Source of the DNA: an uncultured archaeon
GTDB lineage: Archaea > Iainarchaeota > Iainarchaeia > Iainarchaeales > Iainarchaeaceae
Length of the DNA stretch: 32,000 bases
Reading direction: 5' to 3'
NCBI GenBank assembly: GCA_964577555.1
Contig: CAZNZM010000001.1
Span: forward strand, 117,278-149,277
Of this stretch, positions 597 to 31,589 are shown in pieces. Within the stretch, counting starts at the first letter, position 1; every line of letters begins with the position of its first letter. The translations under genes and the position numbers were made by a program. The notes below the pieces were generated by a model. That model was given only the letters and a program-made list of their open reading frames with translations. It did not search any database and was not told the origin of the DNA.

Positions 597-690
597 AAAT
601 ACCAAAAGACAAAGAGCGATATGTTTTTTAGCGGTAATAACTACGTTATTTGGAAACAATAAATGCCTTAATCGACTCTATGGTGTAAAA

Positions 691-3000: not shown

Positions 3001-3371
3001 AACAAAAACAAATCAAAAATTAAAAAATTGTCAAAAAAATGGTTGGCAAAATAAATTCAAAAAAAAACTGGCTCAAAAAAAAACAAGCCACAAAAAAAAT
3101 AGCTCACAAAAAAAACAACCAACAAAAAAAATAACAAAAAAAAACGGCTGATAAAAAAAAATCTTTACAAAAAAAAAACAAAAATTGTCTAAAAAAAAGG
3201 CTCACAAAAAAAATTAAAAAAAGTTCAAAAAAAAATCATGAAAAAAAATTGTCAAAAAAAACTGGCTCAAAAAAAAACAAAATTGGCTCGCAAAAAAAAA
3301 CCAAGCCACAAAAAAAATAGCTCACAAAAAAACAAATTAAAAAAAACGACTTAAAAAAATGTCAAAAAAAA
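3001..3371 (+). repeat. A-run/GC-island mosaic repeat region, copy A (A-rich on + strand)
   Basis: A7-11 runs every ~10-23 nt, separated by islands such as GGCTCA, AGCCAC, AGCTCAC, GGCTCGC and TGTC. It shares blocks with 20152-20862 and 30040-30690. It lies between two convergent stop codons. Confidence 0.85.
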
Positions 3372-5916: not shown

Positions 5917-7305
5917 ATGAATGCATATGAAAAACTTTCCGAGCTTTCAGAAAAAGTCAAAGCACTGGACGATTTTGTTGTAGTGCATCATTATGATGCG
6001 GACGGTTGCAGTGCAGGAGCAATAATGTTCAAGGCTTTATCAAGGCTTGGAAAATCAGTAAAAAAAATTTGGATAAAACAACTTTACAAAGAAACAATAA
6101 ACGAAATAAAAGGACTTGGCAAAAATTATGTTTTTGTGGATTTTGGGTCCGGACAATTGTCATATCTTAAGGAAGAATTCGGAGAAAATTTGTTTGTATT
6201 TGACCATCATGAACGCACAAATGTGCAACACCCTAACCATTTCTCGCCGTTTGATTATGGAATTAATGGCGGAAATGAAATAAGCGCTTCAGGAATATCT
6301 TACTTGTTTGCAGAAACACTGGATAAAAAAAATATAGATCTAATACAACTAGCAATTGTTGGGGCTGTTGGCGACGTTCAGGATTTCAAAGGAAAATTAA
6401 TAGGCTTGAATAGTGAACTAGCAAAGAAAGGAGTAAATGCAGGAATTGTAAAAATAGAAAACGACCTAAAATTGTACGGCAGAATAACAAGACCTTTGAT
6501 TCAATTCCTTGAATTCAGTACCTCGCCAATAATTCCTGAAATAACGGCAAACCAGGAAAACGCAAGAAAGTTTTTACAGGAAAACGGAATAGAACTTAAA
6601 GACGGGGACAGATGGAGAACTTATTCGGATTTGAGCTTTGAAGAAAAAAAAGAATTGGCAACAGCTTTAATATTGCATTTGCAAAAACATAACTTGCCAG
6701 AATGGAAAATATCCGAATTGTTCGGCGAAGTATATCTTTTTCCAAGCGAAGACAAAAAAAGCCCGCTTTACGAGGCAAAAGAATTTTCAACTCTTTGCAA
6801 TGCCTGCGGAAGGCATGGAATGGCTGACATTGCAATAGAAGTATGCTTGGGCGACAGAGGGAGCAATTATTCCATGGCGATTGACTTGATGGCTGAACAT
6901 AGAAGACAATTAAGGGAAGGGATAGACTTTGTTGCAAAAAACGGAATTTCGGAAGAAAAAGAATTTTATTGGTTTGACGCTGGTGAAAAAATTTCTGAGT
7001 CAATCATTGGAATAGTTGCTGGAATGCTTTATGGCTCGGGAATTATTGAAACAAGAAAACCTATTATTGCAATAGCGCATAATAAAGACGGGTATTTAAA
7101 AATTAGCGGCAGGGCTACAAACGAACTAGTTGGAATGGGTTTAAACCTTGGAATAGCATTCAGAAAAAGTTGTGAAAAACTAGGAGAAGGGAACGAAGGA
7201 GGGGGGCACGCAATAGCCGCCGGTTTGAAAATAAAAAAAGAAAAACTCAACGAATTTCTACAAAACCTTAACGAAATAATAAGCGAACAATACACAAAGA
7301 GCTGA
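5917..7305 (+). CDS. recJ: RecJ-like DHH-family phosphoesterase/nuclease (archaeal GAN/RecJ-Cdc45 type)
   Basis: DHH motifs HHYDADG, VFVDFGSG, FVFDHH and GAVGDVQD. DHHA1 motif GGGHAIAAG near the C-terminus. 462 aa. Confidence 0.85.
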   Translation: MNAYEKLSELSEKVKALDDFVVVHHYDADGCSAGAIMFKALSRLGKSVKKIWIKQLYKETINEIKGLGKNYVFVDFGSGQLSYLKEEFGENLFVFDHHERTNVQHPNHFSPFDYGINGGNEISASGISYLFAETLDKKNIDLIQLAIVGAVGDVQDFKGKLIGLNSELAKKGVNAGIVKIENDLKLYGRITRPLIQFLEFSTSPIIPEITANQENARKFLQENGIELKDGDRWRTYSDLSFEEKKELATALILHLQKHNLPEWKISELFGEVYLFPSEDKKSPLYEAKEFSTLCNACGRHGMADIAIEVCLGDRGSNYSMAIDLMAEHRRQLREGIDFVAKNGISEEKEFYWFDAGEKISESIIGIVAGMLYGSGIIETRKPIIAIAHNKDGYLKISGRATNELVGMGLNLGIAFRKSCEKLGEGNEGGGHAIAAGLKIKKEKLNEFLQNLNEIISEQYTKS

Positions 7306-10849: not shown

Positions 10850-11581
10850 TTACAAATTGGTTTGCCTGGACGTAACAATTTTTGTTGATATTCCTACAAT
10901 TAAGAGTTTATCATTGTCTCTTTTAATAGTAAATTTTGTAAAAAAGTAAGGGTTTTGTTCAGGGTAAGGCAAACTGAAAACAAGTATTTGAGATTTTATT
11001 TTTTCAAAATAAGGCAATAATTCTTTTGCCAAATCTTGCGGCAATTTAGGATTTGAGGAAAGACTATATGTTAAGTCTCTAAATTTACTAAATAAACTGG
11101 AAGGCAAGTTAATAATCTTTGAAGGATCTTTTACATGAGGATTTCCAGAACTCCAAATAACTATTTCATAATCTTGTATTACATAGTTGTCAGGACCTTG
11201 CCCCGTCTTTTTAACATATATTATTATTTTGGCATTTCCACCGTTAAATTTTCTGTCAGAGTATATTTTCGCAACCGTACCAACAGGATGCTTACGAAGA
11301 TTCTCATACACAAATTTTTCAAATTCTGGGGAGCGAAAATACTCTGCAAATAAGGCAGAATTTCTAACGAGCTTGTTAGGATGTTTACTGCCTTTGACAG
11401 CAAATTTTTCAAGATAATTGATTTTTTCACTAGGCGGATGAAATTTTGCAAAAACTGTTTTACCAGGCCATTTTAAAGATAGAACTTTTTGTGGGTTTTT
11501 TTTGACTTTTGGCTCATTTCGTGGCCTAAAAAGTCTAGGAATAATTGAAGGCTTAATTGGTTTTCTGGCTTTGGGCAACAT
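10850..11581 (-). CDS. Hypothetical protein with basic N-terminus (243 aa)
   Basis: A long ORF with ordinary composition. No motif recognised. Possible distant paralogue of the 22709-23437 product (NGGNAKIIIYVKKTG...KDPS vs NGARIIVIRSVQRVG...KDPT). Confidence 0.6.
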   Translation of the reverse strand: MLPKARKPIKPSIIPRLFRPRNEPKVKKNPQKVLSLKWPGKTVFAKFHPPSEKINYLEKFAVKGSKHPNKLVRNSALFAEYFRSPEFEKFVYENLRKHPVGTVAKIYSDRKFNGGNAKIIIYVKKTGQGPDNYVIQDYEIVIWSSGNPHVKDPSKIINLPSSLFSKFRDLTYSLSSNPKLPQDLAKELLPYFEKIKSQILVFSLPYPEQNPYFFTKFTIKRDNDKLLIVGISTKIVTSRQTNL

Positions 11582-11619: not shown

Positions 11620-11830
11620 CATTTTGTCTTTTCTTGGCTAGCCATTTTTTGAGATGATTGGCAGACTGTTTTTCAAGCCAAATTTTGTTTTAGCTAACCG
11701 TTTTTTTGAGGGTTTTTTAGGAAATTTGTTTTATTTTTTAGTTTTTTGGGTTTATTTTTGCAAGCCAATTTAGGCAATTTTATTTTTTAAATTCAAATTG
11801 TTTTTTGCTATGGTTTCTTGATTTTTTTAA
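11620..11830 (-). repeat. A-run/GC-island repeat region, copy D (inverted: T-rich on + strand)
   Basis: The reverse complement of 11751-11768 is TTGGCTTGCAAAAATAAA, identical to 20371-20388. Contains T-runs separated by GCAAGCC, GGCTAGCC and AGCTAACCG islands. Lies in a divergent intergenic spacer. Confidence 0.7.
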
Positions 11831-11881
11831 TTTACAACAAACGATAAACCTATTTAATTATAAGCAAATGAATTTTATTTG

Positions 11882-12640
11882 ATGAAGATTTTTATAACTG
11901 GACGAAGGCAAAACTCAATAGCTTACGAAACCGGTTTAAGGGCAATCAATTTTATCAAATCAAAAAACCTAGACTTTGAAATTGACAAAAAATTTATCAA
12001 CATAAAGGGAAAGTCAAAGAATAATTTTGGAAATTCTGCTGACATAGTTGTTTGTTTTGGCGGGGATGGAACGCTTCTTTCGACTTTCCACTCTTTGAAA
12101 AAAGAAATTCCAGTAATTGGAATAAATTGCGGAAGCAAGGGTTTTCTGCAAGCCTATCAAAAAGACGAAATTGAAAAGGCAATTGAAGATATTATTTCAA
12201 AAAATATAAAATTTGAAAAAAGAACAAGAATATTAGCAAAAATAGACGGCAAAATAGTTGGAGAAGCTTTGAATGAAGTATTAATTGTTCCTGAAAAATC
12301 CGGAAGGCTTTTGCATTACACTATTGAAATTGGAAAATATTTGTCAAACGAGGCTGGCGACGGACTTATAATAGCAACTCCCACAGGTTCCACTGCACAT
12401 GCTCTTTCTGCCGGCGGGCCTATAGTAAAAGGCAACGCATCGGTTTTTGTAGTGGTTCCAATAAACCCTGTTGATTGGAAGCACAGACCTCTTGTAATAA
12501 ATGACCATGAAAAAATTGTTATTGCTGGGTTTGAAAAAATGAAAGCAGAAGCGGTAATTGATGGACAAAAATGGTTCAAAATAAAAAACAAAATAGAGCT
12601 TGAAAAAGGGAAACATGTTTTGTTAGGAACAAAGAACTGA
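11882..12640 (+). CDS. nadK: NAD kinase
   Basis: GGDGTLL motif, NEVLI, DGLIIATPTGSTAHALSAGGPIV. ATG at 11882; the ORF track starts one codon earlier at a TTG. Confidence 0.9.
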   Translation: MKIFITGRRQNSIAYETGLRAINFIKSKNLDFEIDKKFINIKGKSKNNFGNSADIVVCFGGDGTLLSTFHSLKKEIPVIGINCGSKGFLQAYQKDEIEKAIEDIISKNIKFEKRTRILAKIDGKIVGEALNEVLIVPEKSGRLLHYTIEIGKYLSNEAGDGLIIATPTGSTAHALSAGGPIVKGNASVFVVVPINPVDWKHRPLVINDHEKIVIAGFEKMKAEAVIDGQKWFKIKNKIELEKGKHVLLGTKN

Positions 12641-12706
12641 TTTACGACAATTGTCAATTTTTAGCTTGACAAAAGACGAAAGATTTTTATATTGGCACGC
12701 CACACA

Positions 12707-12922
12707 ATGGTTTTAATGATTGATGAAAAGACTAAAGAATTGCTCAAAACGGGAAAAGCAAAAATGGAAGCCAGATTGAAAATAGTAAAAGAATATTTTA
12801 CTGGCAAAAGCATCAAAAGCAAATCAAAGTCCTCGGATTTGTTGAAAGCTGGTTTTGCAAAGAAAAAAACAAGAACAAAAGTGGTTGAAGAATACTTGAA
12901 AAAATTAAATCAACCATTTTAA
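12707..12922 (+). CDS. Small Lys-rich hypothetical protein (~70 aa)
   Basis: ORF 12692-12922. ATG codons at 12707 and 12716. A TATA-like TTTTTATATT at 12684-12693 would fit a leaderless start near 12716. No recognisable domain. Confidence 0.4.
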   Translation: MVLMIDEKTKELLKTGKAKMEARLKIVKEYFTGKSIKSKSKSSDLLKAGFAKKKTRTKVVEEYLKKLNQPF

Positions 12923-12949
12923 GTTTTAGAACAGGATTGGTGTTCCAAA

Positions 12950-14260
12950 GTGAAAAACTCAAAAATAGAAAAATTTTATGAAAAAAACCTACAAGAAAGA
13001 CTTGAAATTGTAAAAAATTTTGGGGAACTGTCAAACGAGGAAATGCAAATTCTTGAAAAATTCGGGGCATTGGATTTTGAAACAGCAAACCGAATGATTG
13101 AAAATGTATATTCCACATTCCCAATGCCACTTGGAATTGCAACAAACTTTGAAATAAACGGAAAATCATATTTAATACCTTTTGCGTTGGAAGAACCAAG
13201 CGTTGTTGCGGCGGCAAGCAACGCGGCAAAACTAAGTTCAGGCTTCACTGCCAAGGCAACAGAGCCGATAATGATAGGGCAAATACAAATAGTAAATGTA
13301 AAAAACACGAAAGAGACAATAAAAAAAATTCTTGAAAAAGAAAAAGAACTGCTTGAAAAAGCCAATGCAATAGATTCAACTCTTGTAAAATTCGGCGGCG
13401 GCGCAAAAAAAATAGAAGCAAGGGAAATAGAGACACAAAGAGGAAAAATGATTATAATGCATTTGCTTGTTGATGTCAGGGATGCAATGGGAGCCAATGC
13501 CGTCAATACAATGTGTGAAAGAATCTCCCCAGAAGTTGAAAAAATTACAGGCGGAGAAGCCAGGCTTAGAATAATCAGCAACCTTGCAATACACAGAATT
13601 GTCGAAGCTAAAGCTATTTGGACTAAAGAAAGTCTTGGCAACGACTTTGCAAAAAAAAATGGAATAAAAAACCCGAACCAAAAAGATATTGAAAAATTAG
13701 GGTTTGAAACAATTGAAAAAATACTTGACGCATATGAATTTGCAGCTAATGATGAATTCAGGGCTTGTACCCATAACAAAGGAATAATGAATGGTGTTGA
13801 TGCTGTCGTAATTGCGACAGGAAACGACTTCAGGGCTGTTGAAGCAGGAGCTCACGCATATGCAAGTAGAAGCGGGAAATATAAGCCTTTGACAAAATAC
13901 TATAAAAACAAAGACGGAAATCTTGTAGGTGAAATAGAATTGCCAATGGCTGTTGGTTTGGTTGGCGGAGCAACAAAAACACACCCGATAGCAAAAATCA
14001 ATGTAAAATTGTTAGGAGTGAAAACCGCTTCAGAACTAGCTGAAATAATCGCTTCTGTAGGGCTTGCCCAAAACTTTGCCGCTTTGAAAGCCCTTGCAAC
14101 AGAAGGAATTCAAAAAGGACACATGAAATTGCATGCAAAAAACATAGCCATAATCGCCGGGGCTGATAAAAAGCAAATTGACGAAGTTGCAGCAACCATG
14201 ATAAAAGAAGGAAATATAAGTGTTGCAAGAGCAAAAGAAATAATAGGAGTGAAAAAATGA
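12950..14260 (+). CDS. hmgA: HMG-CoA reductase, class II (bacterial-type)
   Basis: Class II signature ALEEPSVVAAASNAAK (class I has TTEGCLVAS here), DAMGANAVNTMCE, THNKGIMNGVDAVVIATGND. GTG start with GGTG 8 nt upstream. 436 aa. Confidence 0.9.
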   Translation: MKNSKIEKFYEKNLQERLEIVKNFGELSNEEMQILEKFGALDFETANRMIENVYSTFPMPLGIATNFEINGKSYLIPFALEEPSVVAAASNAAKLSSGFTAKATEPIMIGQIQIVNVKNTKETIKKILEKEKELLEKANAIDSTLVKFGGGAKKIEAREIETQRGKMIIMHLLVDVRDAMGANAVNTMCERISPEVEKITGGEARLRIISNLAIHRIVEAKAIWTKESLGNDFAKKNGIKNPNQKDIEKLGFETIEKILDAYEFAANDEFRACTHNKGIMNGVDAVVIATGNDFRAVEAGAHAYASRSGKYKPLTKYYKNKDGNLVGEIELPMAVGLVGGATKTHPIAKINVKLLGVKTASELAEIIASVGLAQNFAALKALATEGIQKGHMKLHAKNIAIIAGADKKQIDEVAATMIKEGNISVARAKEIIGVKK

Positions 14261-15306
14261 TGCCTGGAATTGTTGGTTATGGTTTTTATTGCCCGAAAAA
14301 AAGAATCACCGCAGAAGAAATTGCAAGGGTTTGGAACAAAGATGGTAAAAAAATTTCTGCAGGACTTGGCATAAAAGAAAAAGCAGTGGCGGCATGGGAT
14401 GAAGATACTTCAACAATTTCGGTTGAAGCGGCAAGGCTTGCGCTTGAAGTGGCAAATATTAACCCCAAAGAAATTGACGCTATTTACGTTGGCTCAGAAT
14501 CACACCCATACGCAGTAAAACCGACAGCATCAATAGTAGGCGAAGCCCTGAATGTAGGACAAGATTATATGTGTGCAGACTTGGAATTTGCATGCAAAGC
14601 CGGAACAGCAGGATTGCAAATAGTATATGGGTTTGCAAAAGCGGGTTTGATAAGATACGGCTTGGCAATCGGGGCGGACACCGCACAAGGAAGGCCCGGA
14701 GATGCTTTGGAATTCACCGCAGGCTCTGGAGGAGCTGCTTTTATTGTTGGGACAAAACCAACCGAAATAATTGCTGAAATAAACGATACCTACTCATTTA
14801 CAACAGACACGCCGGATTTTTGGAGACGACAACACGCTGAATTCCCAAGGCATGCTGGAAGATTCACCGGAGAACCGGCATATTTCAAGCATGTAATTAA
14901 TGCAGCAAAAAAAATGATGGAAAAAGCAAGAATGGGTCCAAAAGACTTTACACACGTTGTTTTTCACCAACCAAACGGCAAATTTCCAGTAAGGGCGGCA
15001 AAAATACTTGGATTCAATGAAGAGCAAATAAAACAAGGATTAATCACTCCCTATATAGGAAACACGTATTCTGGTTCATCAATGATTGGACTGGCTTCGG
15101 TGCTTGACGTCGCAAAACCTGATGACAAAATATTAGTGACAAGCTACGGATCTGGCTCTGGAAGCGACGCATTCATAATGACAATAACAAAAAACATAGA
15201 GAAAAAAAGGGCAAAAGTACCGGTGCTAAAAGCAATTGAAGAAAAAGAATACATAGACTATGCACAATACATAATACATAGAAAAAAAATCAAGGGGATG
15301 GAATAA
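14257..15306 (+). CDS. hmgB: HMG-CoA synthase, archaeal type
   Basis: 349 aa. Active-site Cys context LEFACKAGTAG, GSESHPYAVKPTA, HQPNGKFP. ATG overlaps the hmgA stop (ATGA). Confidence 0.85.
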   Translation: MMPGIVGYGFYCPKKRITAEEIARVWNKDGKKISAGLGIKEKAVAAWDEDTSTISVEAARLALEVANINPKEIDAIYVGSESHPYAVKPTASIVGEALNVGQDYMCADLEFACKAGTAGLQIVYGFAKAGLIRYGLAIGADTAQGRPGDALEFTAGSGGAAFIVGTKPTEIIAEINDTYSFTTDTPDFWRRQHAEFPRHAGRFTGEPAYFKHVINAAKKMMEKARMGPKDFTHVVFHQPNGKFPVRAAKILGFNEEQIKQGLITPYIGNTYSGSSMIGLASVLDVAKPDDKILVTSYGSGSGSDAFIMTITKNIEKKRAKVPVLKAIEEKEYIDYAQYIIHRKKIKGME

Positions 15307-16470
15307 ATGAGAAGCGTTTCAATTGTAGGGGTTGGATTGACAGAATTCGGCGAACACTGGGAAAAAAATTTTAAGGAGTTAGTAGCCGAAGCAGGAATAA
15401 AAGCAATTGAAGATTCAGGACTTCACAGAAAGGACATACAAGCTGTTTACGGGGGATGCATGGCTTCAGGCAGATTCATCGGACAAGAACACATTGGAGC
15501 ACTTATAGCAGACCAACTCGGACTAAATCCGATAGCTTCAACAAGAGTTGAAGCGGCATGCGCTTCCGGTGGAGTAGCATTGAGAAACGGATATTTGGCT
15601 GTTGCATCAGGAATTTACGATGTAATAGCGGTTGGCGGAGTAGAAAAAATGACAGAAGTAAGCACTGAAGATGCTGGATTTGCACTTGGAGGCGCTGGAG
15701 ACCAAGAAACTGAACTATTCATGGGAGCAAGCTTTCCAGCACTATACGCTCTAATGGCAAGAGCACACATGCACAAATTCGGAACTACAGAAGAACAACT
15801 TGCTGCAGTTGCGGTAAAGAACCACAAAAATGCAGAAAACAACCCATATGCACAATTCAGAAAAGCGATAACAATTGAAGAAGTCATGAATTCAGGCTAT
15901 GTCGCATCGCCATTGAAATTGCTTGATTGCTCGCCAATAACAGACGGAGCGGCAGCAGTAATAATGTGCTCCACAGAATACGCAAAAAAAATGAAGTTGG
16001 ACAAAGCAGTGGAAATAATTGCATCAACACAAACATCAGATACACTTGCTTTAGCCTCAAGAAAAAACTTATACGAAATACCTGCAGCAAAACTGGCGGC
16101 AGAACAAGCTTACAAACAAGCAGGAATAACAGCAAAAGACATTGACTTTGCTGAAGTACATGATTGCTTTACAATAGCTGAAATAATGGCTATAGAAGCA
16201 CTTGGTTTTTGCAAATTGGGAGAAGGAGGAAAATTCACAGAACAAGGTAACACACAAATTGACGGACAAATCCCGATAAACACTTCAGGGGGGTTAAAAG
16301 GAAAGGGACATCCGGTAGGTGCAACCGGAGTTGCACAAGCAATAGAAGCATACTTGCAATTAAACAACATGGCTGGAAAAAGACAAGTAAAAGGAGTAGA
16401 AATAGGACTTACACATAACGTTGGCGGTTCCGGAGCCACTGCAACAATCCACATATTCAGGAAGGCATAA
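15307..16470 (+). CDS. Acetoacetyl-CoA thiolase (acetyl-CoA C-acetyltransferase), archaeal type
   Basis: VEAACASGGVAL active-site Cys, GGLKGKGHPVGATG, NVGGSGATA. Starts immediately after the hmgB stop. Confidence 0.85.
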   Translation: MRSVSIVGVGLTEFGEHWEKNFKELVAEAGIKAIEDSGLHRKDIQAVYGGCMASGRFIGQEHIGALIADQLGLNPIASTRVEAACASGGVALRNGYLAVASGIYDVIAVGGVEKMTEVSTEDAGFALGGAGDQETELFMGASFPALYALMARAHMHKFGTTEEQLAAVAVKNHKNAENNPYAQFRKAITIEEVMNSGYVASPLKLLDCSPITDGAAAVIMCSTEYAKKMKLDKAVEIIASTQTSDTLALASRKNLYEIPAAKLAAEQAYKQAGITAKDIDFAEVHDCFTIAEIMAIEALGFCKLGEGGKFTEQGNTQIDGQIPINTSGGLKGKGHPVGATGVAQAIEAYLQLNNMAGKRQVKGVEIGLTHNVGGSGATATIHIFRKA

Positions 16471-16472
16471 AC

Positions 16473-16886
16473 ATGGTTCAAGGAGCATTACCATTGCATT
16501 GGAGAAAATACCCTGAAAGATACAGATTAGAAGGCAATATCAACGTTGAAACAGGACAAGAATTCTTCCCAGCAAGAGTAATAGATCCACTAACAGGCAG
16601 AAAAAGCAAGTTAGAACCAAAAGAAATGCCAAGATATGGAAAAATAATTTCATGGACAAGAGTATTCGTGGGCCCAGCAGGCTTTGAAAACGAAACACCA
16701 TACTATTTGGCAATAGTTGAACTTGAAAACGGAATAAGAATACTAACACAAATAGTTGATTCAGAACCACAAAAAGTTAAAATAGGAGCAAAAGTAAAAA
16801 AAGTATTCAGAAAAATATCTGACACAGAAACCGAAGGCGCAATAGCATACGGATATAAATTTAAAGTCATAGAACAAAAAAATTAA
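16473..16886 (+). CDS. DUF35 OB-fold protein (scaffold of the archaeal thiolase/HMG-CoA synthase complex), with degenerate zinc ribbon
   Basis: Sits directly after the thiolase gene. OB-fold-like C-terminal part (GKIISWTRV, YYLAIVELENGIRILTQI, KIGAKVKKVF). The protein contains no Cys at all. Confidence 0.75.
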   Translation: MVQGALPLHWRKYPERYRLEGNINVETGQEFFPARVIDPLTGRKSKLEPKEMPRYGKIISWTRVFVGPAGFENETPYYLAIVELENGIRILTQIVDSEPQKVKIGAKVKKVFRKISDTETEGAIAYGYKFKVIEQKN

Positions 16887-16890
16887 GATA

Positions 16891-17826
16891 ATGAAATCAA
16901 TCGGCATAGGCTATGGCAAAGCAATAATTTTTGGAGAACATTTTGTAGTATATGGGTTGCCTGGAATTGCATCTTCAATAAACCTAATTACAAAATGCAC
17001 TTTCGAAAAAAACGACAACGGAATAATTTCAAATGACCTTGTAACAGGAGAAACAGTGATTTATGGACAAGCAACATACAAAAACCTTGACAAAGTAATA
17101 GGAACAATACTAAAAGAAACAGGAATAAAAGAAAGAAATTTCAGGCTTGATTTGGAAACAAACATGAGCCTTAAAGGGGGAATGGGGAGTTCGGCAGCAT
17201 TATGCGTATCAATTGCAAAATGCCTTAACAAACAATTTTCCCTCAAACTAAATAAAGAAGACATAAACAAAATTTCTTTTGAAGCAGAAAAAGTATTCCA
17301 TAAAACGCCAAGCGGCATAGACAACACGGTTTCATGCTATGGCGGAACCATCTGGTTTGTAAAAGCAAAAACACAAAACATAATTGAAAGGTTGAAGTGC
17401 AAACCCGTTGAAATTGTAATGGCTGACACAGGAAAATCACACAACACCGCTGAAATAGTAGAAATGGTTAGAAAACAAAAAGAAAAAGAACCTGAAAAAT
17501 ACAAAAAAATATTCGAAGAATATGAGAGGCTCGTTTATAAAGGAAGAAAAGCTCTTGAAGAAGAAAACTGGCAAACAGTGGGAAAACTTATGAATAAAAA
17601 CCATGAATTGCTAAAACAAATAAACGTAAGCTGTGAAGAAAACGATTTAATAAAAGAAATATCAATAAAAGCCGGGGCTTTGGGGGCAAAATTGACCGGT
17701 GCAGGCCTAGGAGGAAACAATATTGCATTGACTCCTGGAAAAGCATTACAAGAAAAAGTGGCAAAAGCAATAGAAAAAAAAGGATTCAAAACATATAAAT
17801 TAAAAATCGGGGTGAAGCCGAAATGA
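16891..17826 (+). CDS. mvk: Mevalonate kinase
   Basis: GKAIIFGEHFVVYG N-terminal motif, GHMP-kinase motif GGMGSSAA, KLTGAGLGG. Confidence 0.9.
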   Translation: MKSIGIGYGKAIIFGEHFVVYGLPGIASSINLITKCTFEKNDNGIISNDLVTGETVIYGQATYKNLDKVIGTILKETGIKERNFRLDLETNMSLKGGMGSSAALCVSIAKCLNKQFSLKLNKEDINKISFEAEKVFHKTPSGIDNTVSCYGGTIWFVKAKTQNIIERLKCKPVEIVMADTGKSHNTAEIVEMVRKQKEKEPEKYKKIFEEYERLVYKGRKALEEENWQTVGKLMNKNHELLKQINVSCEENDLIKEISIKAGALGAKLTGAGLGGNNIALTPGKALQEKVAKAIEKKGFKTYKLKIGVKPK

Positions 17827-18827
17827 GCCAAACAATGAAAGCGACAGCAATTGCAAACGCCAACATAGCATTAGTAAAATACTGGGGAAAAAGAGACCAA
17901 AAACTTACTCTGCCACAAAATTCAAGCATATGCATGGTTTTGGATAAATTATATACAATAACAACAACAGAATTCTCAAAAAAACTGACACATGACACTC
18001 TTATAATTGATGGAAAAAAAGCATCACAGCAAGAACTTGAAAGAACAACAAAACACTTAGATATTATCAGAGAGATAGCTGGAAAAAAAATTTATGCTCA
18101 CATTGAAAGCAAAAATAATTTTCCAAAATCGGCAGGCTTGGCGAGTTCGGCTTCCGGATTTGCGGCTCTTACACTATCTGCAACAAAAGCAATTGGTTTG
18201 GAACTGAATGAAAAAGAACTAAGCATAATTGCAAGGCAAGGTTCTGGAAGTGCAGCAAGAAGCATTCCAGGAGGATTTGTAGAACTCACAAAAGGAACCA
18301 AAAGCGATGGCTCGGATTGTTTTGCATTCCAAATAGCACCAAAAGAACATTGGCCAGAACTTACAATGATTGTTGCAGTAGTTACGAAAAAAGAAAAGCA
18401 AATTTCATCAACAAAAGGAATGGAAAACACAGTTGAAACATCACCTCTTTACAAAGCTTGGCTTGAAACAATAGAAGAAGACCTTGAAAAAACCAGAAAA
18501 GCAATAAAAGAAAAAAACATTGAATTGCTAGGCAAGACAGCAGAAATGAATTGTCTAAAAATGCACTCCACAATGCTTACAACCGAACCACACATCATAT
18601 ATTGGGAACCTGAAACAATAAAATTGATAAAAGAAGTAATGAAAATGCGCTCCGAAGGAATAGAATGCTATTTTACAATAGATGGCGGACCACAAGTAAA
18701 AATAATATGCTTAGAAAAAGACAGAAAAAAAGTTGAAAAAAAAATCAAAAAAATGAAAGAAGTAAAAGCAATCTATTCCTGCCATGCTGGAGACGGAGCA
18801 AGAATTGAAAAAAAAGGGTTATTCTAA
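17823..18827 (+). CDS. mvaD: Mevalonate (di)phosphate decarboxylase family protein; likely phosphomevalonate decarboxylase from operon context
   Basis: NIALVKYWGKRD, AGLASSASGFAAL, ARQGSGSAARS, YFTIDGGPQV. 4-nt overlap with mvk. The substrate call is inference from IPK being present and no phosphomevalonate kinase being seen. Confidence 0.85.
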   Translation: MSQTMKATAIANANIALVKYWGKRDQKLTLPQNSSICMVLDKLYTITTTEFSKKLTHDTLIIDGKKASQQELERTTKHLDIIREIAGKKIYAHIESKNNFPKSAGLASSASGFAALTLSATKAIGLELNEKELSIIARQGSGSAARSIPGGFVELTKGTKSDGSDCFAFQIAPKEHWPELTMIVAVVTKKEKQISSTKGMENTVETSPLYKAWLETIEEDLEKTRKAIKEKNIELLGKTAEMNCLKMHSTMLTTEPHIIYWEPETIKLIKEVMKMRSEGIECYFTIDGGPQVKIICLEKDRKKVEKKIKKMKEVKAIYSCHAGDGARIEKKGLF

Positions 18828-19333
18828 TGAAAGAAAAAGAAGAAATAATTGACATAATAAATGAAAACGACCAAACAATAGGTTTTGCAACCCGCTCAGA
18901 AGTAAAACAAAAAAAACTGCTTTACAGGTGTGCCGGAATATACCTCGAAAGAAACGGAAAAATAGCACTCGAAAAAAGAAGCATGAAAAAAGAAATAAGA
19001 CCTGGAAATTGGAGCATTGTTGAAGAAACCGTAAAAAGCGGGGAAACATTCGAACAAGCAGCAATAAGAGGATTAAAAGAAGAACTAGGCCTGAAAGCAA
19101 TAAACCTAAAATTCGTAGGAAAAAAAATAATTGAAGACATGAAATACCCTGACAAATTCATGCTGGGTATTTTCAAATGCAATGCAAAAGGAAATTTGAA
19201 GTTGCAAAAAGAAGAAGTTGAAAAGGCAAGATTCTTGACGCTAAAACAAGTTGAAGCAATGATAAGAAATGGAAAAAACATAAGCCCATCACTAACAGAA
19301 ACATTTAACATATACATAAAAAGCAAAAGTTGA
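18827..19333 (+). CDS. Nudix-fold hydrolase (IDI-related sequence but lacking IDI metal ligands)
   Basis: Nudix-box-like GETFEQAAIRGLKEELGL (E-x7-R-x-L-x-EE-x-G). TAATG overlap with the upstream gene. Its stop overlaps or abuts the ipk start. Confidence 0.75.
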   Translation: MKEKEEIIDIINENDQTIGFATRSEVKQKKLLYRCAGIYLERNGKIALEKRSMKKEIRPGNWSIVEETVKSGETFEQAAIRGLKEELGLKAINLKFVGKKIIEDMKYPDKFMLGIFKCNAKGNLKLQKEEVEKARFLTLKQVEAMIRNGKNISPSLTETFNIYIKSKS

Positions 19334-19338
19334 TTGAA

Positions 19339-20151
19339 ATGAAAAATGAAAAAAATTTGTATATAATAAAACTTGGCGGCTCGGTAATAACTGAAAAAAA
19401 AACAGGCAAATTCATAATAAAAAAGGAAAAAATTGCGAAAATTGCAAAAGAAATAAAAAAAGCCCAAAAAAAGAAAAAATTCCAATTAATAATAGTACAC
19501 GGAGCAGGCCCTTTCGGGCATAAAATAGTTTCAGAATATGGAATCTCAAACGGAGTAAAAACTAAAAAACAATTTGAAGGATTCAAAAAAACAAAAGAAT
19601 CAATGAGGCGACTATGTAAGCAAATAATCAAAATACTGAAAAAAAACGGAATAAAAGCAACTCCGGCGCAAGACAAAGCAAACATAATTCAACATAACAA
19701 GAAAATTGTTAAACTGAATCTTGAAGGAATAAAAAAAATCTTGAAAACGGAAAAAGTCCCCATACTCCACGGAGACATGGTAAAAGACACTGCAATCGGA
19801 GCATCGGTAGTAAGCGGGGACACTATAATTGCAATTCTTGCAAACAAATTAAATGCAACAAAAGTTTTTTACGGCACTGATGTAAATGGAATATATAACT
19901 CAAATCCAAAAAAAAACAAAAAAGCCAAACTCATAAAAGAAATAAACAACAGCAACATAAAAAAAGTCTTGAAAATGACAACAGGGGCAAACACAATTGA
20001 TGTAACTGGAGGAATGAAAGGAAAATTAGAAGAAATAAGAAAAAACATAAAAGGCATAGAGTGTTTTGTATTCAACCTTCAAAATGAAAAAAACATTAAT
20101 AAACTATTGTTTGGAAAAAAAACCAATTGCACAAAAATAATATTCAACTAA
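19339..20151 (+). CDS. ipk: Isopentenyl phosphate kinase
   Basis: Amino-acid-kinase fold motifs LYIIKLGGSVITEK, IIVHGAGPFGH, VVSGDTII. ATG at 19339, with an alternative TTG at 19330. Confidence 0.9.
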   Translation: MKNEKNLYIIKLGGSVITEKKTGKFIIKKEKIAKIAKEIKKAQKKKKFQLIIVHGAGPFGHKIVSEYGISNGVKTKKQFEGFKKTKESMRRLCKQIIKILKKNGIKATPAQDKANIIQHNKKIVKLNLEGIKKILKTEKVPILHGDMVKDTAIGASVVSGDTIIAILANKLNATKVFYGTDVNGIYNSNPKKNKKAKLIKEINNSNIKKVLKMTTGANTIDVTGGMKGKLEEIRKNIKGIECFVFNLQNEKNINKLLFGKKTNCTKIIFN

Positions 20152-20862
20152 ATTCAACATAAACAAAAAATTGGCTAAAAAAATAAAAAATTAAAAAAAA
20201 TAAGAAAAACACCTTAAAAAGAACTAAAAAATAAGCATAGGTAGATCGCAAAAAAAAAGAAAATTCAATTAAAAAACAAAAAAATAATGTCAAAAAAAAC
20301 AACACACAAAAACAAAAAAAACAACTTGACAAAAAAAAGAATTCAAAAAAAAAGAAAAATGACAAAAAAATTGGCTTGCAAAAATAAATCCAAAAAAACA
20401 CATAAACAACGCCTAAAATGCAAAAAAAGAGCTGAAAAATAAAAACAAAAAATCAATTAAAAAAAATAAAATTGTCTAAAAAAAGGCTCACAAAAAAAAC
20501 AACTTTGACAAAAAAAAATACCAAAAAAACGGCTCGCCAAAAAAACAAAATTAAAAAAATGGCTTGCAAAAAACAAAACAAAAAAAATGACCAACAAAAA
20601 AAATACCAAACAAAAAAATAATTCAAAAAAAATAAATAACAAAAAAAACTTGGCTCGCCAAAAAAACGGATTGAAAAAAAAACCGCAAAAAAATAGCTCA
20701 CAAAAAAAACAATTAAAAAAAATAAAATCGACTAAAAAATTGGCCAAAAAATAAATTAATAATTAAAAAAACTAAAACCAAGATTAACAGAAACAAAAAA
20801 ACAAGAAACAAGACAAAAATTTTAAATTAAAACTTGGCTAGAAAACTCAGAAAATTACAAAT
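20152..20862 (+). repeat. A-run/GC-island mosaic repeat region, copy B (largest)
   Basis: Same architecture as 3001-3371. 20523-20573 is identical to 30130-30180. 20321-20396 is near-identical to 30254-30331. 20689-20740 resembles 3314-3360. Confidence 0.9.
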
Positions 20863-21423
20863 TCACAAAAAAAAATTTTTCCCCTGCTCGTCGCTATAAA
20901 CTATTCTAATTGTCTCCCTAAGCCAAACAGGATAATTTGATGAACCGCCTTGAATATCTTTCAAAACGGTTTTTGCTGGGATTTTAATTATTTTATTATT
21001 AGTATGGCTTGCAGAAGGAATTATTTTGCCAGAGTATTCCGTAAATGCGGCCAGGCAATATTCATTTTCACAAGAACCATCTCCATAATCCTTCTCATAA
21101 GAATAACCTCCAAGAATCTTGATTTCAACTTTTTTTATCCCATATTCGTCTTCCAAGCACCTGATAGCCGAATCAATGGGCTTCTCACCAGCCAAAACAT
21201 GGGTTGTCGGCGAATCAAATACGCCACCGCCAACTTTATTACGAGGTCTTTCATGAAGAACAAGTTCTTTTTTGTCATTAAAAACAAGAACTTGAATTGC
21301 CAAATGCTTTACACCGGGCGAAGTATGTCCAGAACGCCTATCAATAATTTTTCCAGTAACCTTGCCAAATTCATCAACACAAACAAGCAACTGGTTTGGG
21401 TTATCCAAAAGACCGTGGGACAT
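20863..21423 (-). CDS. idi: Type-1 isopentenyl-diphosphate isomerase-like Nudix protein (catalytic Cys position is Thr)
   Basis: Aligns by eye to E. coli Idi. H-x6-H (GHTSPGVKH) matches His25/His32. THVLAGE aligns with CGHPQLGE. CENEYC aligns with VENEVC (Glu114/Glu116). YG aligns with ELG. Confidence 0.7.
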   Translation of the reverse strand: MSHGLLDNPNQLLVCVDEFGKVTGKIIDRRSGHTSPGVKHLAIQVLVFNDKKELVLHERPRNKVGGGVFDSPTTHVLAGEKPIDSAIRCLEDEYGIKKVEIKILGGYSYEKDYGDGSCENEYCLAAFTEYSGKIIPSASHTNNKIIKIPAKTVLKDIQGGSSNYPVWLRETIRIVYSDEQGKNFFL

Positions 21424-21509
21424 TCAAAAGTAAAAAAACAAAAGAAAAATAAAGGTTAAGTATTGGAATTTTGCAAACCAAAGTCAATATAAAATACTTA
21501 AACTGGCCA

Positions 21510-21980
21510 TCAAGAATATTTCTTTCTTAATTCCATAAGGCAATTTTTGATCAGATCCAAAGACTCATTAATGTTTTTTGAAACAGAATATTCAAAACCC
21601 TTTGAAACATCATCTTTGCCAAACATCGGATTAGTTGAAAATGAAATTCTTTTACCACGCCATTCCAGCAAGCCAAGATTAAAAAGCCTTGCAAGATGAT
21701 ACCGCAAAGCCTTTTCACCGATTTTTCTTTTTTGAGAAACAAGATAAGAATTCAACTCAGAAATTTTTGGAAACTTCTTTTTTGATATTTGAAAATAAAA
21801 CAAAGCATCAAGAACGTCCAAAACCCCAGACCTTGACTCATTTGGCGAAATAAGACCAGAAGAAAGCGCAAACCAACGAATCAAAGAACGCTTAGTAAGA
21901 GAAACCTCCTGCGGAAAATCCATCTGCCTTATTGTAAAAGAACGCCTCACCAATTCAGCCTCTGGAAACTCCAAAGCCAT
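21510..21980 (-). CDS. Winged-helix (wHTH) DNA-binding protein, hypothetical regulator
   Basis: The segment EKALRYHLARLFNLGLLEWRGKRISF looks like a recognition helix plus wing. 156 aa. No family assignment possible. Confidence 0.5.
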   Translation of the reverse strand: MALEFPEAELVRRSFTIRQMDFPQEVSLTKRSLIRWFALSSGLISPNESRSGVLDVLDALFYFQISKKKFPKISELNSYLVSQKRKIGEKALRYHLARLFNLGLLEWRGKRISFSTNPMFGKDDVSKGFEYSVSKNINESLDLIKNCLMELRKKYS

Positions 21981-29665: not shown

Positions 29666-29914
29666 TTATTTTTTCTTTTTTGGTGATGCTGAGTTTTCAA
29701 TTATTGTTTTGTCACCATCAAACCCAAACAAGTCTTCAACTTTTTTTCCTGATTTTACGCTTTCGTTGAATTCTTTAATATCTTCTTCATCCAAACCCAA
29801 ATTTTTCAATATCTTGTCATGATCTTCTAAAGTCATTTGGTTAAATTCTTCCCTCCAAATCTTCATATCTTCAGTGTCTGGAAGAGGATGGCCTTCCCTT
29901 TTTCTTGTTATCAT
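29666..29914 (-). CDS. Small acidic hypothetical protein (82 aa)
   Basis: ORF with ordinary, non-repetitive composition (MTLEDHDKILKNLGLDEEDIKEF). No motif recognised. Confidence 0.45.
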   Translation of the reverse strand: MITRKREGHPLPDTEDMKIWREEFNQMTLEDHDKILKNLGLDEEDIKEFNESVKSGKKVEDLFGFDGDKTIIENSASPKKKK

Positions 29915-30039
29915 GACATAATAAACGCCTTACAGCTTTATAAATTTTACAGAAAACATTGCCAGCAAAAAACATTAAAAAGAGAAAAAGCCAAAATATT
30001 GGAAGGAAAACAAACTAAGCCAAATAATTTAATTACAAA

Positions 30040-30690
30040 CAAAAAAATTAACTGGAATTTGTAAAAAACAAGGATAAATTCAATTGCAAGAAAAAATAGT
30101 TCAAAATTTGGCAAATAAAATAAAATTGAAAAAAAACGGCTCGCCAAAAAAACAAAATTAAAAAAATGGCTTGCAAAAAAAACAAACAAAAAAAACGACT
30201 TGCAAAAAAATGAAAAAAATAAAAAAACAACTCAAAAAACAAACAACAAAAAAACAACTTGACAAAAAAAAAGAATTCAAAAAAAAAAAGAAAAATGACA
30301 AAAAAATTGGCTTGCAAAACAAATCCAAAAATAAAAAACTTGACCAAAAAAAACAACAAAAACAAAACTCACAAAAAAATGACCACAAAAAAATCAGCTT
30401 GCAAAAAACAAAACAAAAAAAATAAAAAAAAACAAATTTCAAAAAAAACGTCTAACAAAAAAATAAAAAAAACACACAAAAAAAATTACCAAAAAAAAAC
30501 AAACAACAACAAAAAAACTTGACTCAAAAAAAACAAAATTGGCTCGCAAAAAAAACCAAGCCACAAAAAAAATAACCCAATTAAAAAAAATACATAGAAA
30601 CGCTTAAAATACAAAAAAAGAAAAATCACAAAAAAAACAGCTCACAAAAAACACAAAAAAATAATTTATTTTTCAAAAAAGTTTCGTGAT
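30040..30690 (+). repeat. A-run/GC-island mosaic repeat region, copy C
   Basis: Shares exact or near-exact blocks with copy B (30130-30180, 30254-30331) and copy A (30524-30574 vs 3267-3319). Lies in a divergent spacer directly upstream of the recombinase gene. Confidence 0.9.
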
Positions 30691-30725: not shown

Positions 30726-31589
30726 ATGGACGAAAAAGATCAGGAAGCGATTAAAGAAGCAGAATATCCAAAATTTATCATGGAATTCAAACAAGAACTC
30801 ATAATAGCAGGATTAAGCCCTCGGACGATAAAAATGTATTTGCTTTACATTTCAGATTTTTTTGAATTTACAAAAAAAGAGCCAAAAGACATAACCAGAA
30901 GCGATATTGTCAATTTTTTGGCAAAAATTAAAGAGAGAGGTAATTCAAATGCCACTCTTGCGCTTTGCCATGCGGCATTTAAATATTTTTTCCAAACGTG
31001 GCTGAAAATGAATGTATTAAATGATGTAAAAATTCCTAAAAAAAACAAACACCTGCCTATTGTCCTTTCTAAAGAGGAAGTTAAACAATTACTCCAAGCA
31101 GTAAAACCAGGCAAAAACAGATTGCTTCTTCAATTTATTTATTCGACTGGAACACGAGTAAGCGAAGCTGTAAATATGAAAGTAGAAGATTTTAATTCCA
31201 AAGAAAGAATAGCAAAGGTAAAATCTGGAAAAGGAGACAAAGACAGGATAATAATTCTTTCAAAAAATTGGTGTTTAATGGCAAAAAAATATTTGGAAAG
31301 AAAAAAAGTAAAAAGTCAATTTTTTTTCACTAAAAAGAATGGAAAACCAATAACAGCAACTACAGTTCAGAGAATAGTAAGATACGCAGCCAAAAAAGCA
31401 GGTTTGAACAAGGAAGTAACCCCGCACACTCTCAGGCATAGTTTTGCCACTCATTTGCTTGAGGCTGGAGAAAACATTAGAAATATACAAGAATTGCTTG
31501 GGCATAGCAGTTTAAGCACAACACAAATATACACTCACGTTTCAACAGAACAATTAAAAAAAGTCAAAAGCCCCCTTGATGAATTATAA
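30726..31589 (+). CDS. xerA: Tyrosine recombinase, XerA/XerC-like
   Basis: C-terminal catalytic region TPHTLRHSFATHLLEAGENIRNIQELLGHSSLSTTQIYTHV (R-H-R-Y family), SAM-like N-terminal domain, GTRVSEA. ATG at 30726 (MDEKDQ) or 30711. Confidence 0.85.
   Translation: MDEKDQEAIKEAEYPKFIMEFKQELIIAGLSPRTIKMYLLYISDFFEFTKKEPKDITRSDIVNFLAKIKERGNSNATLALCHAAFKYFFQTWLKMNVLNDVKIPKKNKHLPIVLSKEEVKQLLQAVKPGKNRLLLQFIYSTGTRVSEAVNMKVEDFNSKERIAKVKSGKGDKDRIIILSKNWCLMAKKYLERKKVKSQFFFTKKNGKPITATTVQRIVRYAAKKAGLNKEVTPHTLRHSFATHLLEAGENIRNIQELLGHSSLSTTQIYTHVSTEQLKKVKSPLDEL

What the first reader, a model, noticed from the sequence alone, without database searches (positions are those of the whole stretch)
20152..20862. 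Dispersed, strand-asymmetric GC-island + oligo(A) repeat family fills four unusually long intergenic regions
Neighbouring genes in this window commonly overlap by 1-4 nt, yet four spacers are long. They are 3001-3371, 11620-11830 (inverted), 20152-20862 and 30040-30690, about 2 kb or ~6% of the window. They are built from A7-11 runs, spaced roughly 10-23 nt start to start in the stretch I measured. Between the runs sit 4-8 nt islands from a small vocabulary: GGCTCGC, GGCTTGC, GGCTCAC, AGCTCAC, AGCCAC, CTTGAC, TGTC. Multi-island blocks recur between loci in mosaic order, so this is a true repeat family and not just low complexity. There is no fixed period, no spacer-like unique segments and no frame-consistent ORF. 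I cannot match it to any element class I know. Possible roles, all inference: oligo(T) termination zones for minus-strand genes; genome-encoded A-rich 3' extensions of the plus-strand operons ending at 3000 and 20151; arrays of binding sites for a DNA or RNA protein; or a non-autonomous mobile or gene-converting module.
Basis: seen in the sequence. Interest (0 to 1): 0.75.

Follow-up and report, generated by a model that had tools for sequence, protein, structure and literature searches.

The report
Fast-changing A-run repeat arrays between genes
A small symbiotic-type archaeon fills many gaps between its genes with fast-changing, one-sided arrays of A runs and short GC words; they look like satellite-type filler DNA shaped by an unusually strong strand-specific mutation bias, not a defined genetic device.

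Summary
The four spacers are arrays of ~16-nt units: a pyrimidine, A7-9, a pyrimidine and a short island. They hold 2.5-3.4 times more A7+ runs than base shuffles, and GGCTYRC occurs 20 times on the A-rich strand and never reversed. Modules of 30-85 nt are 91-100% identical between arrays. Four assemblies give identical sequence.

The organism is a DPANN archaeon (Diapherotrites/Iainarchaeota). In 63.6 kb of contiguous sequence, eight arrays make up 5%. A sister species has arrays at all seven comparable sites, but its interiors do not align and it has its own amplified modules. Three more distant relatives have 1-18 nt spacers at the same gene junctions.

The arrays have no ORF conservation, RNA structure, Rfam hit, inverted repeats, fixed period or helical phasing.

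New result: the strand asymmetry is not special to the arrays. Four-fold sites right of ~32.35 kb are T 74% / A 9% on the + strand, whatever the gene strand. Array polarity mostly follows this local skew.

Best reading (0.45): unconstrained, self-renewing satellite-like DNA, driven by strand-biased mutation, A-run slippage and gene conversion, which incidentally forms polar oligo-T terminator stacks. A function is not excluded, because the arrays are retained at every shared site.

The parts
3001..3371 (+). Array R1, A-rich on the + strand, 371 nt. It lies between the convergent genes 574-3000 (+, DUF7504) and 3372-4433 (-, KaiC-like).
   Evidence: Identical in L010 and L012.
11620..11830 (-). 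Array R2, weak and inverted (T-rich on the + strand). It lies between the divergent genes 10850-11581 (-) and 11882-12640 (+, NAD kinase).
   Evidence: The 30-nt stretch 11742-11771 is 97% complementary to 20368-20397 (I4).
20152..20862 (+). Array R3 (the finding), 711 nt with 38 runs of A6 or longer. It lies between the convergent genes for isopentenyl phosphate kinase (19339-20151, +) and a NUDIX protein (20863-21423, -).
   Evidence: No Rfam hit or RNA structure. Identical in L004, L007 and L008.
30040..30690 (+). Array R4, 651 nt. It lies between the divergent genes 29666-29914 (-) and the Xer-type tyrosine recombinase gene 30726-31589 (+).
20322..20398 (+). Module A reference copy: CAACTTGAC-A8-GAATTC-A9-G-A5-TGAC-A7-TTGGCTTGC-A5-TAAATCC.
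   Evidence: Copies at 90-94% identity lie in R4 and, three times and inverted, in R7 outside the window. TRF finds a 67-nt period x 2.7 copies at 87% in R7.
30255..30331 (+). Module A copy in R4, 93.6% identical to the R3 copy.
20530..20587 (+). Module B: CGGCTCGCC-A7-CAAAATT-A7-TGGCTTGC-A6-CAAAAC-A8.
   Evidence: Logan contig L009 ends beside it.
30137..30195 (+). Module B copy in R4, 96.6% identical.
   Evidence: Logan contig L009 ends inside it.
3262..3332 (+). Module C: CTGGCTC-A9-CAAAATTGGCTCGC-A9-CCAAGCCAC-A8-TAGCTCAC-A7. Further copies lie at 3059-3114 (90%) and 30526-30574 (98%).
3181..3213 (+). Module D: AAAATTGTCT-A8-GGCTCAC-A8. A copy lies at 20468-20499 (97%).
20834..20862 (.). 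Proximal flank of R3 that still aligns with the sister species. The left flank, 20152-20169, does the same. Everything between them does not align.
   Evidence: the L001 alignment stops at 20169 and resumes at 20834.
29915..29983 (.). Conserved promoter-side flank of R4, 94% identical to the sister species. It contains a TTTATAAA TATA-like box for gene 29666-29914.
11818..11878 (.). Conserved promoter-side flank of R2, upstream of the NAD kinase gene.
   Evidence: the L001 alignment starts at 11818.

Best explanation
The arrays are non-coding, unstructured, satellite-like DNA that arises and renews itself in unconstrained spacers of one DPANN (Diapherotrites/Iainarchaeota) lineage.

Shown:
1. 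They are mosaics of ~16-nt units grouped into 30-85-nt modules.
2. Modules have been copied recently within and between arrays, in either chromosomal orientation.
3. Interiors carry no detectable sequence constraint and do not align with the sister species.
4. Their A/C-rich versus T/G-rich strands have nearly the base composition of synonymous sites in flanking genes. Their polarity mostly follows the local strand skew.
5. Relatives without the strong skew have no arrays in the stretches available.

Inferred mechanism:
1. A lineage-specific, extreme strand-specific substitution bias of the deamination type (T and G enriched on one strand) drives any free DNA towards about 65-75% T on that strand.
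2. The resulting A/T runs of 7-9 nt act as microhomology for replication slippage, unequal exchange and ectopic gene conversion.
3. Units and modules are therefore duplicated, deleted and homogenised within a genome (concerted evolution). This keeps the arrays long despite deletion.

Incidental consequences (inferred): the T-rich strand is a stack of archaeal oligo-T terminators that should block RNA polymerase from one direction only. The duplex is straight, stiff A-tract DNA.
For: Not coding or structured:
- ORFs in the arrays have no Pfam match.
- There is no Rfam hit.
- Fold z-scores are -1.4 and +1.0.

Recent copying:
- Module A copies are 91-94% identical in R3, R4 and, three times and inverted, in R7. 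Module B is 97% and module C 98%.
- The sister species has its own module S at 96-100%.
- Four-fold divergence between the two species is 0.19-0.39.

No sequence constraint:
- The arrays do not align between species. Ordinary spacers align and differ by only 8-10%.
- The one collinear stretch, in R6, has 15 gap events in 185 columns, and its orthologous islands differ at 2 of 8 bases.
- Two strains of the sister species have near-identical flanks but rearranged arrays.

Composition equals neutral composition:
- Arrays on the A-rich strand: A .63, C .14, G .076, T .16 in both species.
- Third codon positions of Trm56: A .67, C .19, G .05, T .09. Of SerRS on the other strand: T .57, G .32, A .08, C .03.
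- Four-fold sites at 32.4-47 kb: T .74, A .09 on the + strand for genes of both orientations.

Polarity and lineage link:
- Array polarity agrees in sign with the local four-fold AT skew at R1, R3 and R5-R8.
- L260, L002 and L003 have skews mostly below 0.3, spacers of 1-18 nt at the same junctions, and no arrays.
Against: - All seven sites that can be compared hold an array in both species, despite 19-39% neutral divergence. In a streamlined prokaryote this suggests either selection for retention or a strong bias towards expansion.
- R1, R3 and R4 are much more skewed (AT skew +0.65) than local four-fold sites (+0.02 to +0.40). R2 has the opposite sign to its surroundings. Local mutation pressure alone therefore does not set their composition.
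- Run length peaks at 7-8 rather than decaying geometrically.
- GGCTYRC is strictly oriented, 20:0. Either feature could reflect selection rather than shared descent of copies.
- Strain-level rearrangement could partly be local misassembly of repeats, as documented for another Diapherotrite (PMC5905446).
- Only 63.6 kb of one genome was available.
Confidence: 0.45

Rival explanations
1. The arrays are selected polar transcription terminators or insulators. The stacked T7-9 runs on one strand stop archaeal RNA polymerase arriving from one direction. This protects neighbouring genes in a very compact genome, and the arrays are kept for that reason.
For: - Oligo-T runs are the archaeal intrinsic termination signal, and consecutive terminators are known (PMC2253867, PMC7237163).
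- The T-rich strand is the sense strand downstream of the KaiC-like gene (R1), the NUDIX gene (R3), the 200-aa gene (R5), the tRNA genes (R7) and the polyprenyl synthase gene (R8).
- Arrays are retained at all seven shared sites in two species.
- A composition-level function would tolerate the observed sequence turnover.
Against: - R2 and R4 lie between divergent promoters, where no annotated transcript enters from the blocked side.
- R6 has the A-rich strand as the sense strand of both flanking genes.
- Twenty to forty T runs over 350-700 nt is far more than termination needs.
- Other convergent pairs manage with 13-300 nt and one or two T runs.
- The short flanks next to the stop codons are the conserved parts, not the arrays.
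Confidence: 0.17
2. The arrays are chromatin or nucleoid elements. Straight, stiff A-tract DNA with a narrow minor groove would exclude histones or recruit a nucleoid protein. The arrays would then act as domain boundaries or SMC roadblock sites.
For: - In Thermococcus kodakarensis, A-tract frequency correlates with stalling of Smc-ScpAB at TrmBL2 sites (PMC11840125).
- The arrays are very rich in A-tracts. Their spacing of ~15-16 bp (about 1.5 helical turns) predicts straight rather than curved DNA.
- The arrays occur every 2-10 kb and are retained in both species.
Against: - No protein is identified.
- The islands are not conserved.
- The strong strand orientation of the motifs is not needed for a duplex-shape function.
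- There is no array in 16 kb to the left of the window.
Confidence: 0.12
3. The arrays are built by a non-autonomous mobile element of the MITE, REP/BIME or IS200/IS605 kind, which inserts into spacers and is moved by a transposase encoded elsewhere.
For: - Near-identical modules occur at distant sites and in both chromosomal orientations.
- The arrays sit where more distant relatives have spacers of 1-18 nt.
- The mosaic order recalls BIMEs.
- A polarity that follows strand bias would fit single-strand transposition.
Against: - There are no terminal or internal inverted repeats or hairpins.
- There are no definable ends or target duplications, because every junction is an A run.
- No transposase gene was seen in 63.6 kb apart from one Xer-type recombinase.
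- Module copies occur only inside existing arrays, never alone.
Confidence: 0.08
4. The arrays act as RNA. They would be transcribed either as A/C-rich unstructured 3' or 5' extensions of neighbouring mRNAs, or as U-rich RNAs that bind Sm-like proteins.
For: - No oligo-T terminator follows the + strand genes that end at 3000 and 20151, so read-through into A-rich RNA is likely.
- Both strands are essentially unstructured.
- Archaeal SmAP proteins and the exosome handle A-rich and U-rich tails (PMC5570065).
Against: - No sequence conservation.
- No promoter was identified inside the arrays.
- Orientation relative to the flanking genes is inconsistent.
- No expression data were available.
Confidence: 0.07
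5. The arrays are an assembly artefact of homopolymer-rich short reads.
For: - Contigs often end in the arrays.
- Arrays of the sister species differ between samples.
- Repeat misassembly is documented in a Diapherotrite genome (PMC5905446).
Against: - The window sequence, arrays included, is 100% identical in contigs from three JGI samples and one Logan assembly made with a different assembler.
- A second species has arrays at the same sites.
Confidence: 0.03

Closest known systems
Bacterial interspersed mosaic elements (BIME/REP) and modular BOX-type intergenic repeats
   Same: They are dispersed in spacers, built from a small set of short modules in mosaic order, variable in copy number between strains, and often lie between convergent genes.
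   Different: REP and BOX units are imperfect palindromes that form hairpins, and REPs are linked to RAYT transposases. Here there are no inverted repeats or structure, the units are separated by A7-9 runs, and the host is an archaeon.
Satellite or minisatellite DNA evolving in concert (species-specific amplification from a shared 'library' of variants)
   Same: - Higher-order units of 30-67 nt.
- Within-genome copies far more similar than between-species copies.
- Each species has its own amplified module.
- Array length changes about two-fold between species and strains.
   Different: Satellites are typically long head-to-tail arrays of one unit in eukaryotes. Here the arrays are short (0.2-0.8 kb), mosaic, without a fixed period, and scattered between the genes of a compact prokaryotic genome.
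Archaeal intrinsic terminators, including consecutive oligo-dT terminators (PMC2253867; PMC7237163)
   Same: Runs of five or more T on the non-template strand downstream of genes. Several such runs in a row are known.
   Different: Known cases have 1-4 runs within tens of nt. Here there are 20-40 runs over 350-700 nt, also between divergent promoters and in the non-terminating orientation (R6).
Phased A-tract clusters / intrinsically curved DNA in prokaryotic spacers
   Same: Clusters of A-tracts concentrated in non-coding DNA.
   Different: The defining 10-11 bp phasing is absent. The dominant spacing is ~15-16 bp, which cancels curvature. The tracts are also longer (7-9 nt).
Whole-strand base disparity in CPR Microgenomates (PMC7143001) and strand asymmetry of animal mitochondrial genomes
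   Same: Very strong strand-specific composition at neutral sites that is independent of gene orientation, found in small-genome organisms and attributed to single-strand deamination or an unusual replication mode.
   Different: The CPR case is a G/C disparity (C 29.8% vs G 15.0%) along the whole chromosome. Here it is mainly A/T (T 74% vs A 9% at four-fold sites), it changes abruptly within the 63.6 kb examined, and it is accompanied by repeat arrays.
CRISPR arrays
   Same: Non-coding repetitive arrays in archaeal spacers that break short-read assemblies.
   Different: There is no fixed-length repeat, there are no unique spacers of constant size, no cas genes were seen, and there are several loci every few kb.

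Membership tests
CRISPR array | Identical direct repeats of 23-50 nt at a constant period, separated by unique spacers of similar length. | tested here: not met
   TRF and repeat scans give many overlapping periods of 5-67 nt at 59-93% matches and no constant repeat/spacer pattern.
CRISPR array | cas genes nearby. | tested here: not met
   Pfam scans of 30 window ORFs and the precomputed Pfam families listed for the genes called in the flanking loci show none.
MITE | Terminal inverted repeats, target-site duplication and a defined element length. | tested here: not met
   No inverted repeats in R1 or R3, and only chance-level AT matches in R4. Module ends are A runs, so no ends or duplications can be defined.
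REP/BIME | Imperfect palindromic units able to form hairpins. | tested here: not met
   Fold energies are near the shuffle values on both strands, z -1.4 and +1.0. No inverted repeats.
REP/BIME | Mosaic combination of a few motif types in extragenic DNA. | tested here: met
   Modules A-D recur in different orders in R1, R3, R4 and R7.
REP/BIME | An associated RAYT (IS200/IS605-like) transposase in the genome. | not testable with these tools
   Only 63.6 kb of the genome could be read. None was seen there.
Tandem repeat / minisatellite (VNTR) | Head-to-tail copies of one unit with a fixed period. | tested here: inconclusive
   Local higher-order periods exist: 67 nt x 2.7 copies at 87% in R7, and 30 nt and 59 nt at 75% in R4. 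No single period describes a whole array.
Tandem repeat / minisatellite (VNTR) | Copy number or length varies between strains. | tested here: met
   The sister-species strains L255, L256 and L257 differ in array length and order while their flanks are near-identical. Caveat: misassembly is possible.
Phased A-tract curved DNA | A-tracts repeated at the helical period of 10-11 bp. | tested here: not met
   Spectral power at 10-11 nt is near the shuffle level. The peaks are at 14.5-15 nt and 18-20 nt, plus 29 nt in R4. Median spacing is 16 nt.
Archaeal oligo-T intrinsic terminator | A T run of five or more on the sense strand directly downstream of a gene. | tested here: inconclusive
   Met for one flanking gene at R1, R3, R5, R7 and R8. 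Not met at R2 and R4 (divergent promoters) or R6 (A-rich sense strand). Actual termination was not measured.
Structured non-coding RNA (any Rfam family) | A match to a covariance model, or a significant conserved structure. | tested here: not met
   No Rfam match at the gathering score or at E<=1. There is no excess folding energy.
Protein-coding (Lys-rich) gene | An open frame conserved in relatives, or a family match. | tested here: not met
   Only ORFs of 80-105 aa, overlapping one another on both strands. None has a Pfam match. The arrays do not align with the sister species.
Archaeal replication origin | Origin recognition boxes flanking an AT-rich unwinding element next to an orc1/cdc6 gene. 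| tested here: not met
   No orc1/cdc6 domain appears in the Pfam scans of window ORFs or in the families listed for the genes called across the 63.6 kb. There are no inverted repeat boxes in the arrays. Eight arrays in 64 kb is too many for origins.

The most novel reading that the evidence does not exclude
The arrays and the extreme synonymous-site skew are two read-outs of one unusual process in this DPANN lineage. That process would be a replication or repair mode that leaves one strand single-stranded for a long time, or a loss of deamination repair. Under this reading the abrupt skew change at ~32.35 kb, 0.7 kb past the Xer-type recombinase gene, marks an origin, a terminus or a unidirectional start point. 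Array polarity would then be a ready-made marker of replication direction. The arrays would be a new kind of archaeal satellite DNA, kept because it gives polar transcription or replication barriers.
Probability: 0.25. Interest if true: 0.75.

Novelty: new variant of a known kind. Interest (0 to 1): 0.55.

Why it matters
DPANN archaea are regarded as genome-streamlined. Here about 5% of a 64-kb stretch is fast-turning repeat DNA, which shows that satellite-like sequence can persist and evolve in concert in such a genome.

The associated strand bias is among the strongest I know of for a cellular genome (this comparison rests on my own knowledge). Four-fold sites are T 74% against A 9%, independent of gene orientation. 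That bias bears on three things:
- how these uncultured organisms replicate and repair DNA;
- codon-usage and phylogenetic artefacts in DPANN trees;
- why their metagenome assemblies fragment.

If the arrays prove to be polar barriers or markers of replication direction, they would give a sequence-only handle on chromosome organisation in an uncultured lineage.

Tried and rejected
1. Genome-wide census by DNA pattern. My patterns were too loose.
2. Viral contigs. There were only a few single matches. One 150-nt mini-array (L261) was not followed up. There is no sign that the family is virus-borne.
3. Rfam at gathering and permissive thresholds, and folding of both strands: nothing.
4. Coding potential: nothing.
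5. Helical phasing or curvature: rejected.
6. A rule for orientation relative to flanking genes: none. The sites are three convergent, two divergent and three tandem, and the tandem sites occur in both orientations.
7. A single switch of array polarity along the chromosome (+ - + + | - - - -). With 8 arrays and one exception this is not significant by itself. It gained meaning only when compared with the codon-position skews.
8. Inverted repeats or ends of a mobile element: none.
9. Origin-like boxes near the skew change: none recognised.
10. Literature searches for A-run arrays in DPANN or other archaea. No description of such arrays was found in the held library.

Full report
**What is there.** The window comes from a DPANN archaeon.
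- Its genes include KaiC-like ATPases, a GINS-associated nuclease (archaeal RecJ-like, DHH-CID domain), an archaeal mevalonate operon ending in isopentenyl phosphate kinase, Dus and a Xer-type recombinase.
- The closest named homologues are 'Candidatus Diapherotrites archaeon'.

- Split at A runs, they consist of ~16-nt units: a short island, nearly always ending in a pyrimidine (C 66%, T 29%), then A7-9 (mode 8), followed again by C or T.
- A7+ runs are 2.5-3.4 times more frequent than in base shuffles of the same spacers.
- Island words are strongly non-random: GGCT occurs 16 times against 0.8 expected.
- The words are strictly oriented: GGCTYRC occurs 20 times on the A-rich strand and never as its reverse complement.
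- R2 is a weak, inverted member.

**A real repeat family.** Blocks of 40-85 nt are 94-98% identical between arrays.
- R3/R4 sharing exceeds what shuffling whole units gives.
- The blocks resolve into modules. Module A (~62-67 nt) occurs in R3 and R4, and three times, inverted, in a further array outside the window. Modules B, C and D are shared among R1, R3 and R4.
- TRF finds no single period, only local higher-order periods of 30-67 nt.
- There are no inverted repeats, no Rfam matches, no excess RNA structure on either strand, and no ORF with a family match.
- A-tract spacing is ~15-16 nt with no 10-11-nt phasing.

**Not an artefact.** The window is 100% identical, arrays included, to contigs from three JGI samples and one Logan assembly. 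One Logan contig (L009) ends inside R3 and R4, in or beside their shared block, as expected for true repeats.

**Extent.** Walking outwards gave 63.6 kb of contiguous sequence.
- It holds eight arrays totalling 3.25 kb, or 5%.
- The junctions are three convergent, two divergent and three tandem.
- No orientation rule relative to the flanking genes emerges. At tandem sites the sense strand is A-rich at R6 and T-rich at R7 and R8.

**Relatives.** A sister species (kinase 90% and SerRS 94% identical; four-fold divergence 0.19-0.39) has arrays at all seven comparable junctions.
- The interiors do not align, whereas ordinary spacers align with 8-10% differences. Only the 20-70-nt flanks next to stop codons or promoters are conserved.
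- The one collinear stretch, in R6, has 15 gap events in 185 columns, and its orthologous islands differ.
- The sister species has its own highly similar module, S.
- Two of its strains have near-identical flanks but rearranged arrays. Repeat misassembly, documented in PMC5905446, is a caveat here.
- Three more distant relatives have 1-18-nt spacers at the same gene junctions and no arrays in about 30 kb.

**The strand asymmetry is genome-level.** Third-position and four-fold-site composition shows a chromosome-strand bias that is independent of gene orientation.

| Segment (window coordinates) | Four-fold sites on the + strand |
|---|---|
| 32.4-47 kb | T .74, A .09, G .11, C .06 |
| 12-22 kb | A .54, T .23 |
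| 22-32.3 kb | AT skew about zero |
| -16.4 to -3 kb | AT skew about zero |

- The sister species shows the same values. The array-free relatives show skews mostly below 0.3.
- Array composition (A .63, C .14, G .076, T .16 in both species) is close to that of third codon positions on the A-rich strand, for example Trm56: A .67, C .19, G .05, T .09.
- Array polarity agrees in sign with the local skew at R1, R3 and R5-R8. R4 lies in a zero-skew segment, and R2 disagrees.
- The skew changes abruptly about 0.7 kb past the recombinase gene, just beyond the window end. No origin-like boxes were recognised there.
- A whole-strand G/C disparity is known in CPR Microgenomates (PMC7143001).

**Interpretation.** The best-supported reading is unconstrained, self-renewing satellite-like DNA.
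- A lineage-specific strand-biased substitution pressure makes free DNA A/T-run-rich on one strand.
- The runs then promote slippage, unequal exchange and gene conversion.
- This duplicates and homogenises modules within a genome.

This accounts for the composition, most of the polarity, the mosaic order, the species-specific modules, the lack of constraint and the lineage restriction.

It does not fully explain three things:
- retention at every shared site in a streamlined genome;
- the left-hand arrays being more skewed than their surroundings;
- the peaked run length.

A composition-level function therefore remains open, either as a polar oligo-T transcription barrier (PMC2253867, PMC7237163) or as stiff A-tract DNA acting as a chromatin or SMC boundary (PMC11840125).

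**Limits.** Both large-collection pattern scans were wasted on patterns that were too loose. No whole-genome census, expression data or long reads were available.

Noticed in passing
L264 6101-21299 (window-equivalent 32.0-47.2 kb); also window 11882-21980: There is an extreme strand bias at synonymous sites that is independent of gene orientation. Four-fold sites on the + strand are T .74 / A .09 right of ~32.35 kb and A .54 / T .23 at 12-22 kb. They are near zero at 22-32.3 kb and at -16 to -3 kb. The change is abrupt, between the PRC-barrel gene (L264 6101-6430) and the next gene (6518-7120), 0.7 kb past the Xer-type recombinase gene. It could be an origin, a terminus or a rearrangement breakpoint.
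   Followed up: partly
L264 ~13900-14300; L255 5035-5174 and 2481-2631; L007 1933-2080: tRNA genes of 140-150 nt, presumably intron-bearing. Rfam finds them and ARAGORN in bacterial mode misses them. Those near L264 13900-14300 and L255 5035-5174 lie directly upstream of array R7.
   Followed up: partly
L007 4195-4400 (window-equivalent ~34.9-35.1 kb): A GC-rich 200-nt segment between array R6 and the TFIIE gene. It is called as a 67-aa ORF with no Pfam match, and its RNA fold z-score is -2.4. It is absent from the sister species, where the array continues instead. It may be a small RNA gene or a recent insertion.
   Followed up: partly
L007 5600-5700: Four copies of an ATTACAGTAA-like palindromic motif lie directly upstream of a 137-aa gene that has no Pfam match. 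They look like operator or iteron sites.
   Followed up: no
window 13683-13706 and 29792-29815: A 24-nt inverted match, 96% complementary, between two coding regions: the HMG-CoA reductase gene and the 82-aa gene next to R4.
   Followed up: no
window 1934-2070 and 2447-2583: An internal 137-nt direct repeat (73% identical) inside the 808-aa DUF7504 gene, which suggests a duplicated protein segment.
   Followed up: no
L261 8259-8407 (IMGVR_UViG_3300011335_000895): A 150-nt mini-array of A5-7 runs with GGCTTGC, GGC and GCC islands in a 28% GC viral contig. It could be chance or a distant relative of the family.
   Followed up: no
window 19394-19479 and other coding DNA on the A-rich strand: Coding sequence on the A-rich strand also carries many A7-9 runs: 38 runs of A7 or longer in 8.3 kb of the mevalonate operon, against one in 3.4 kb of SerRS and its neighbour on the T-rich side. 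The strand bias therefore also loads genes with slippage-prone homopolymers.
   Followed up: partly
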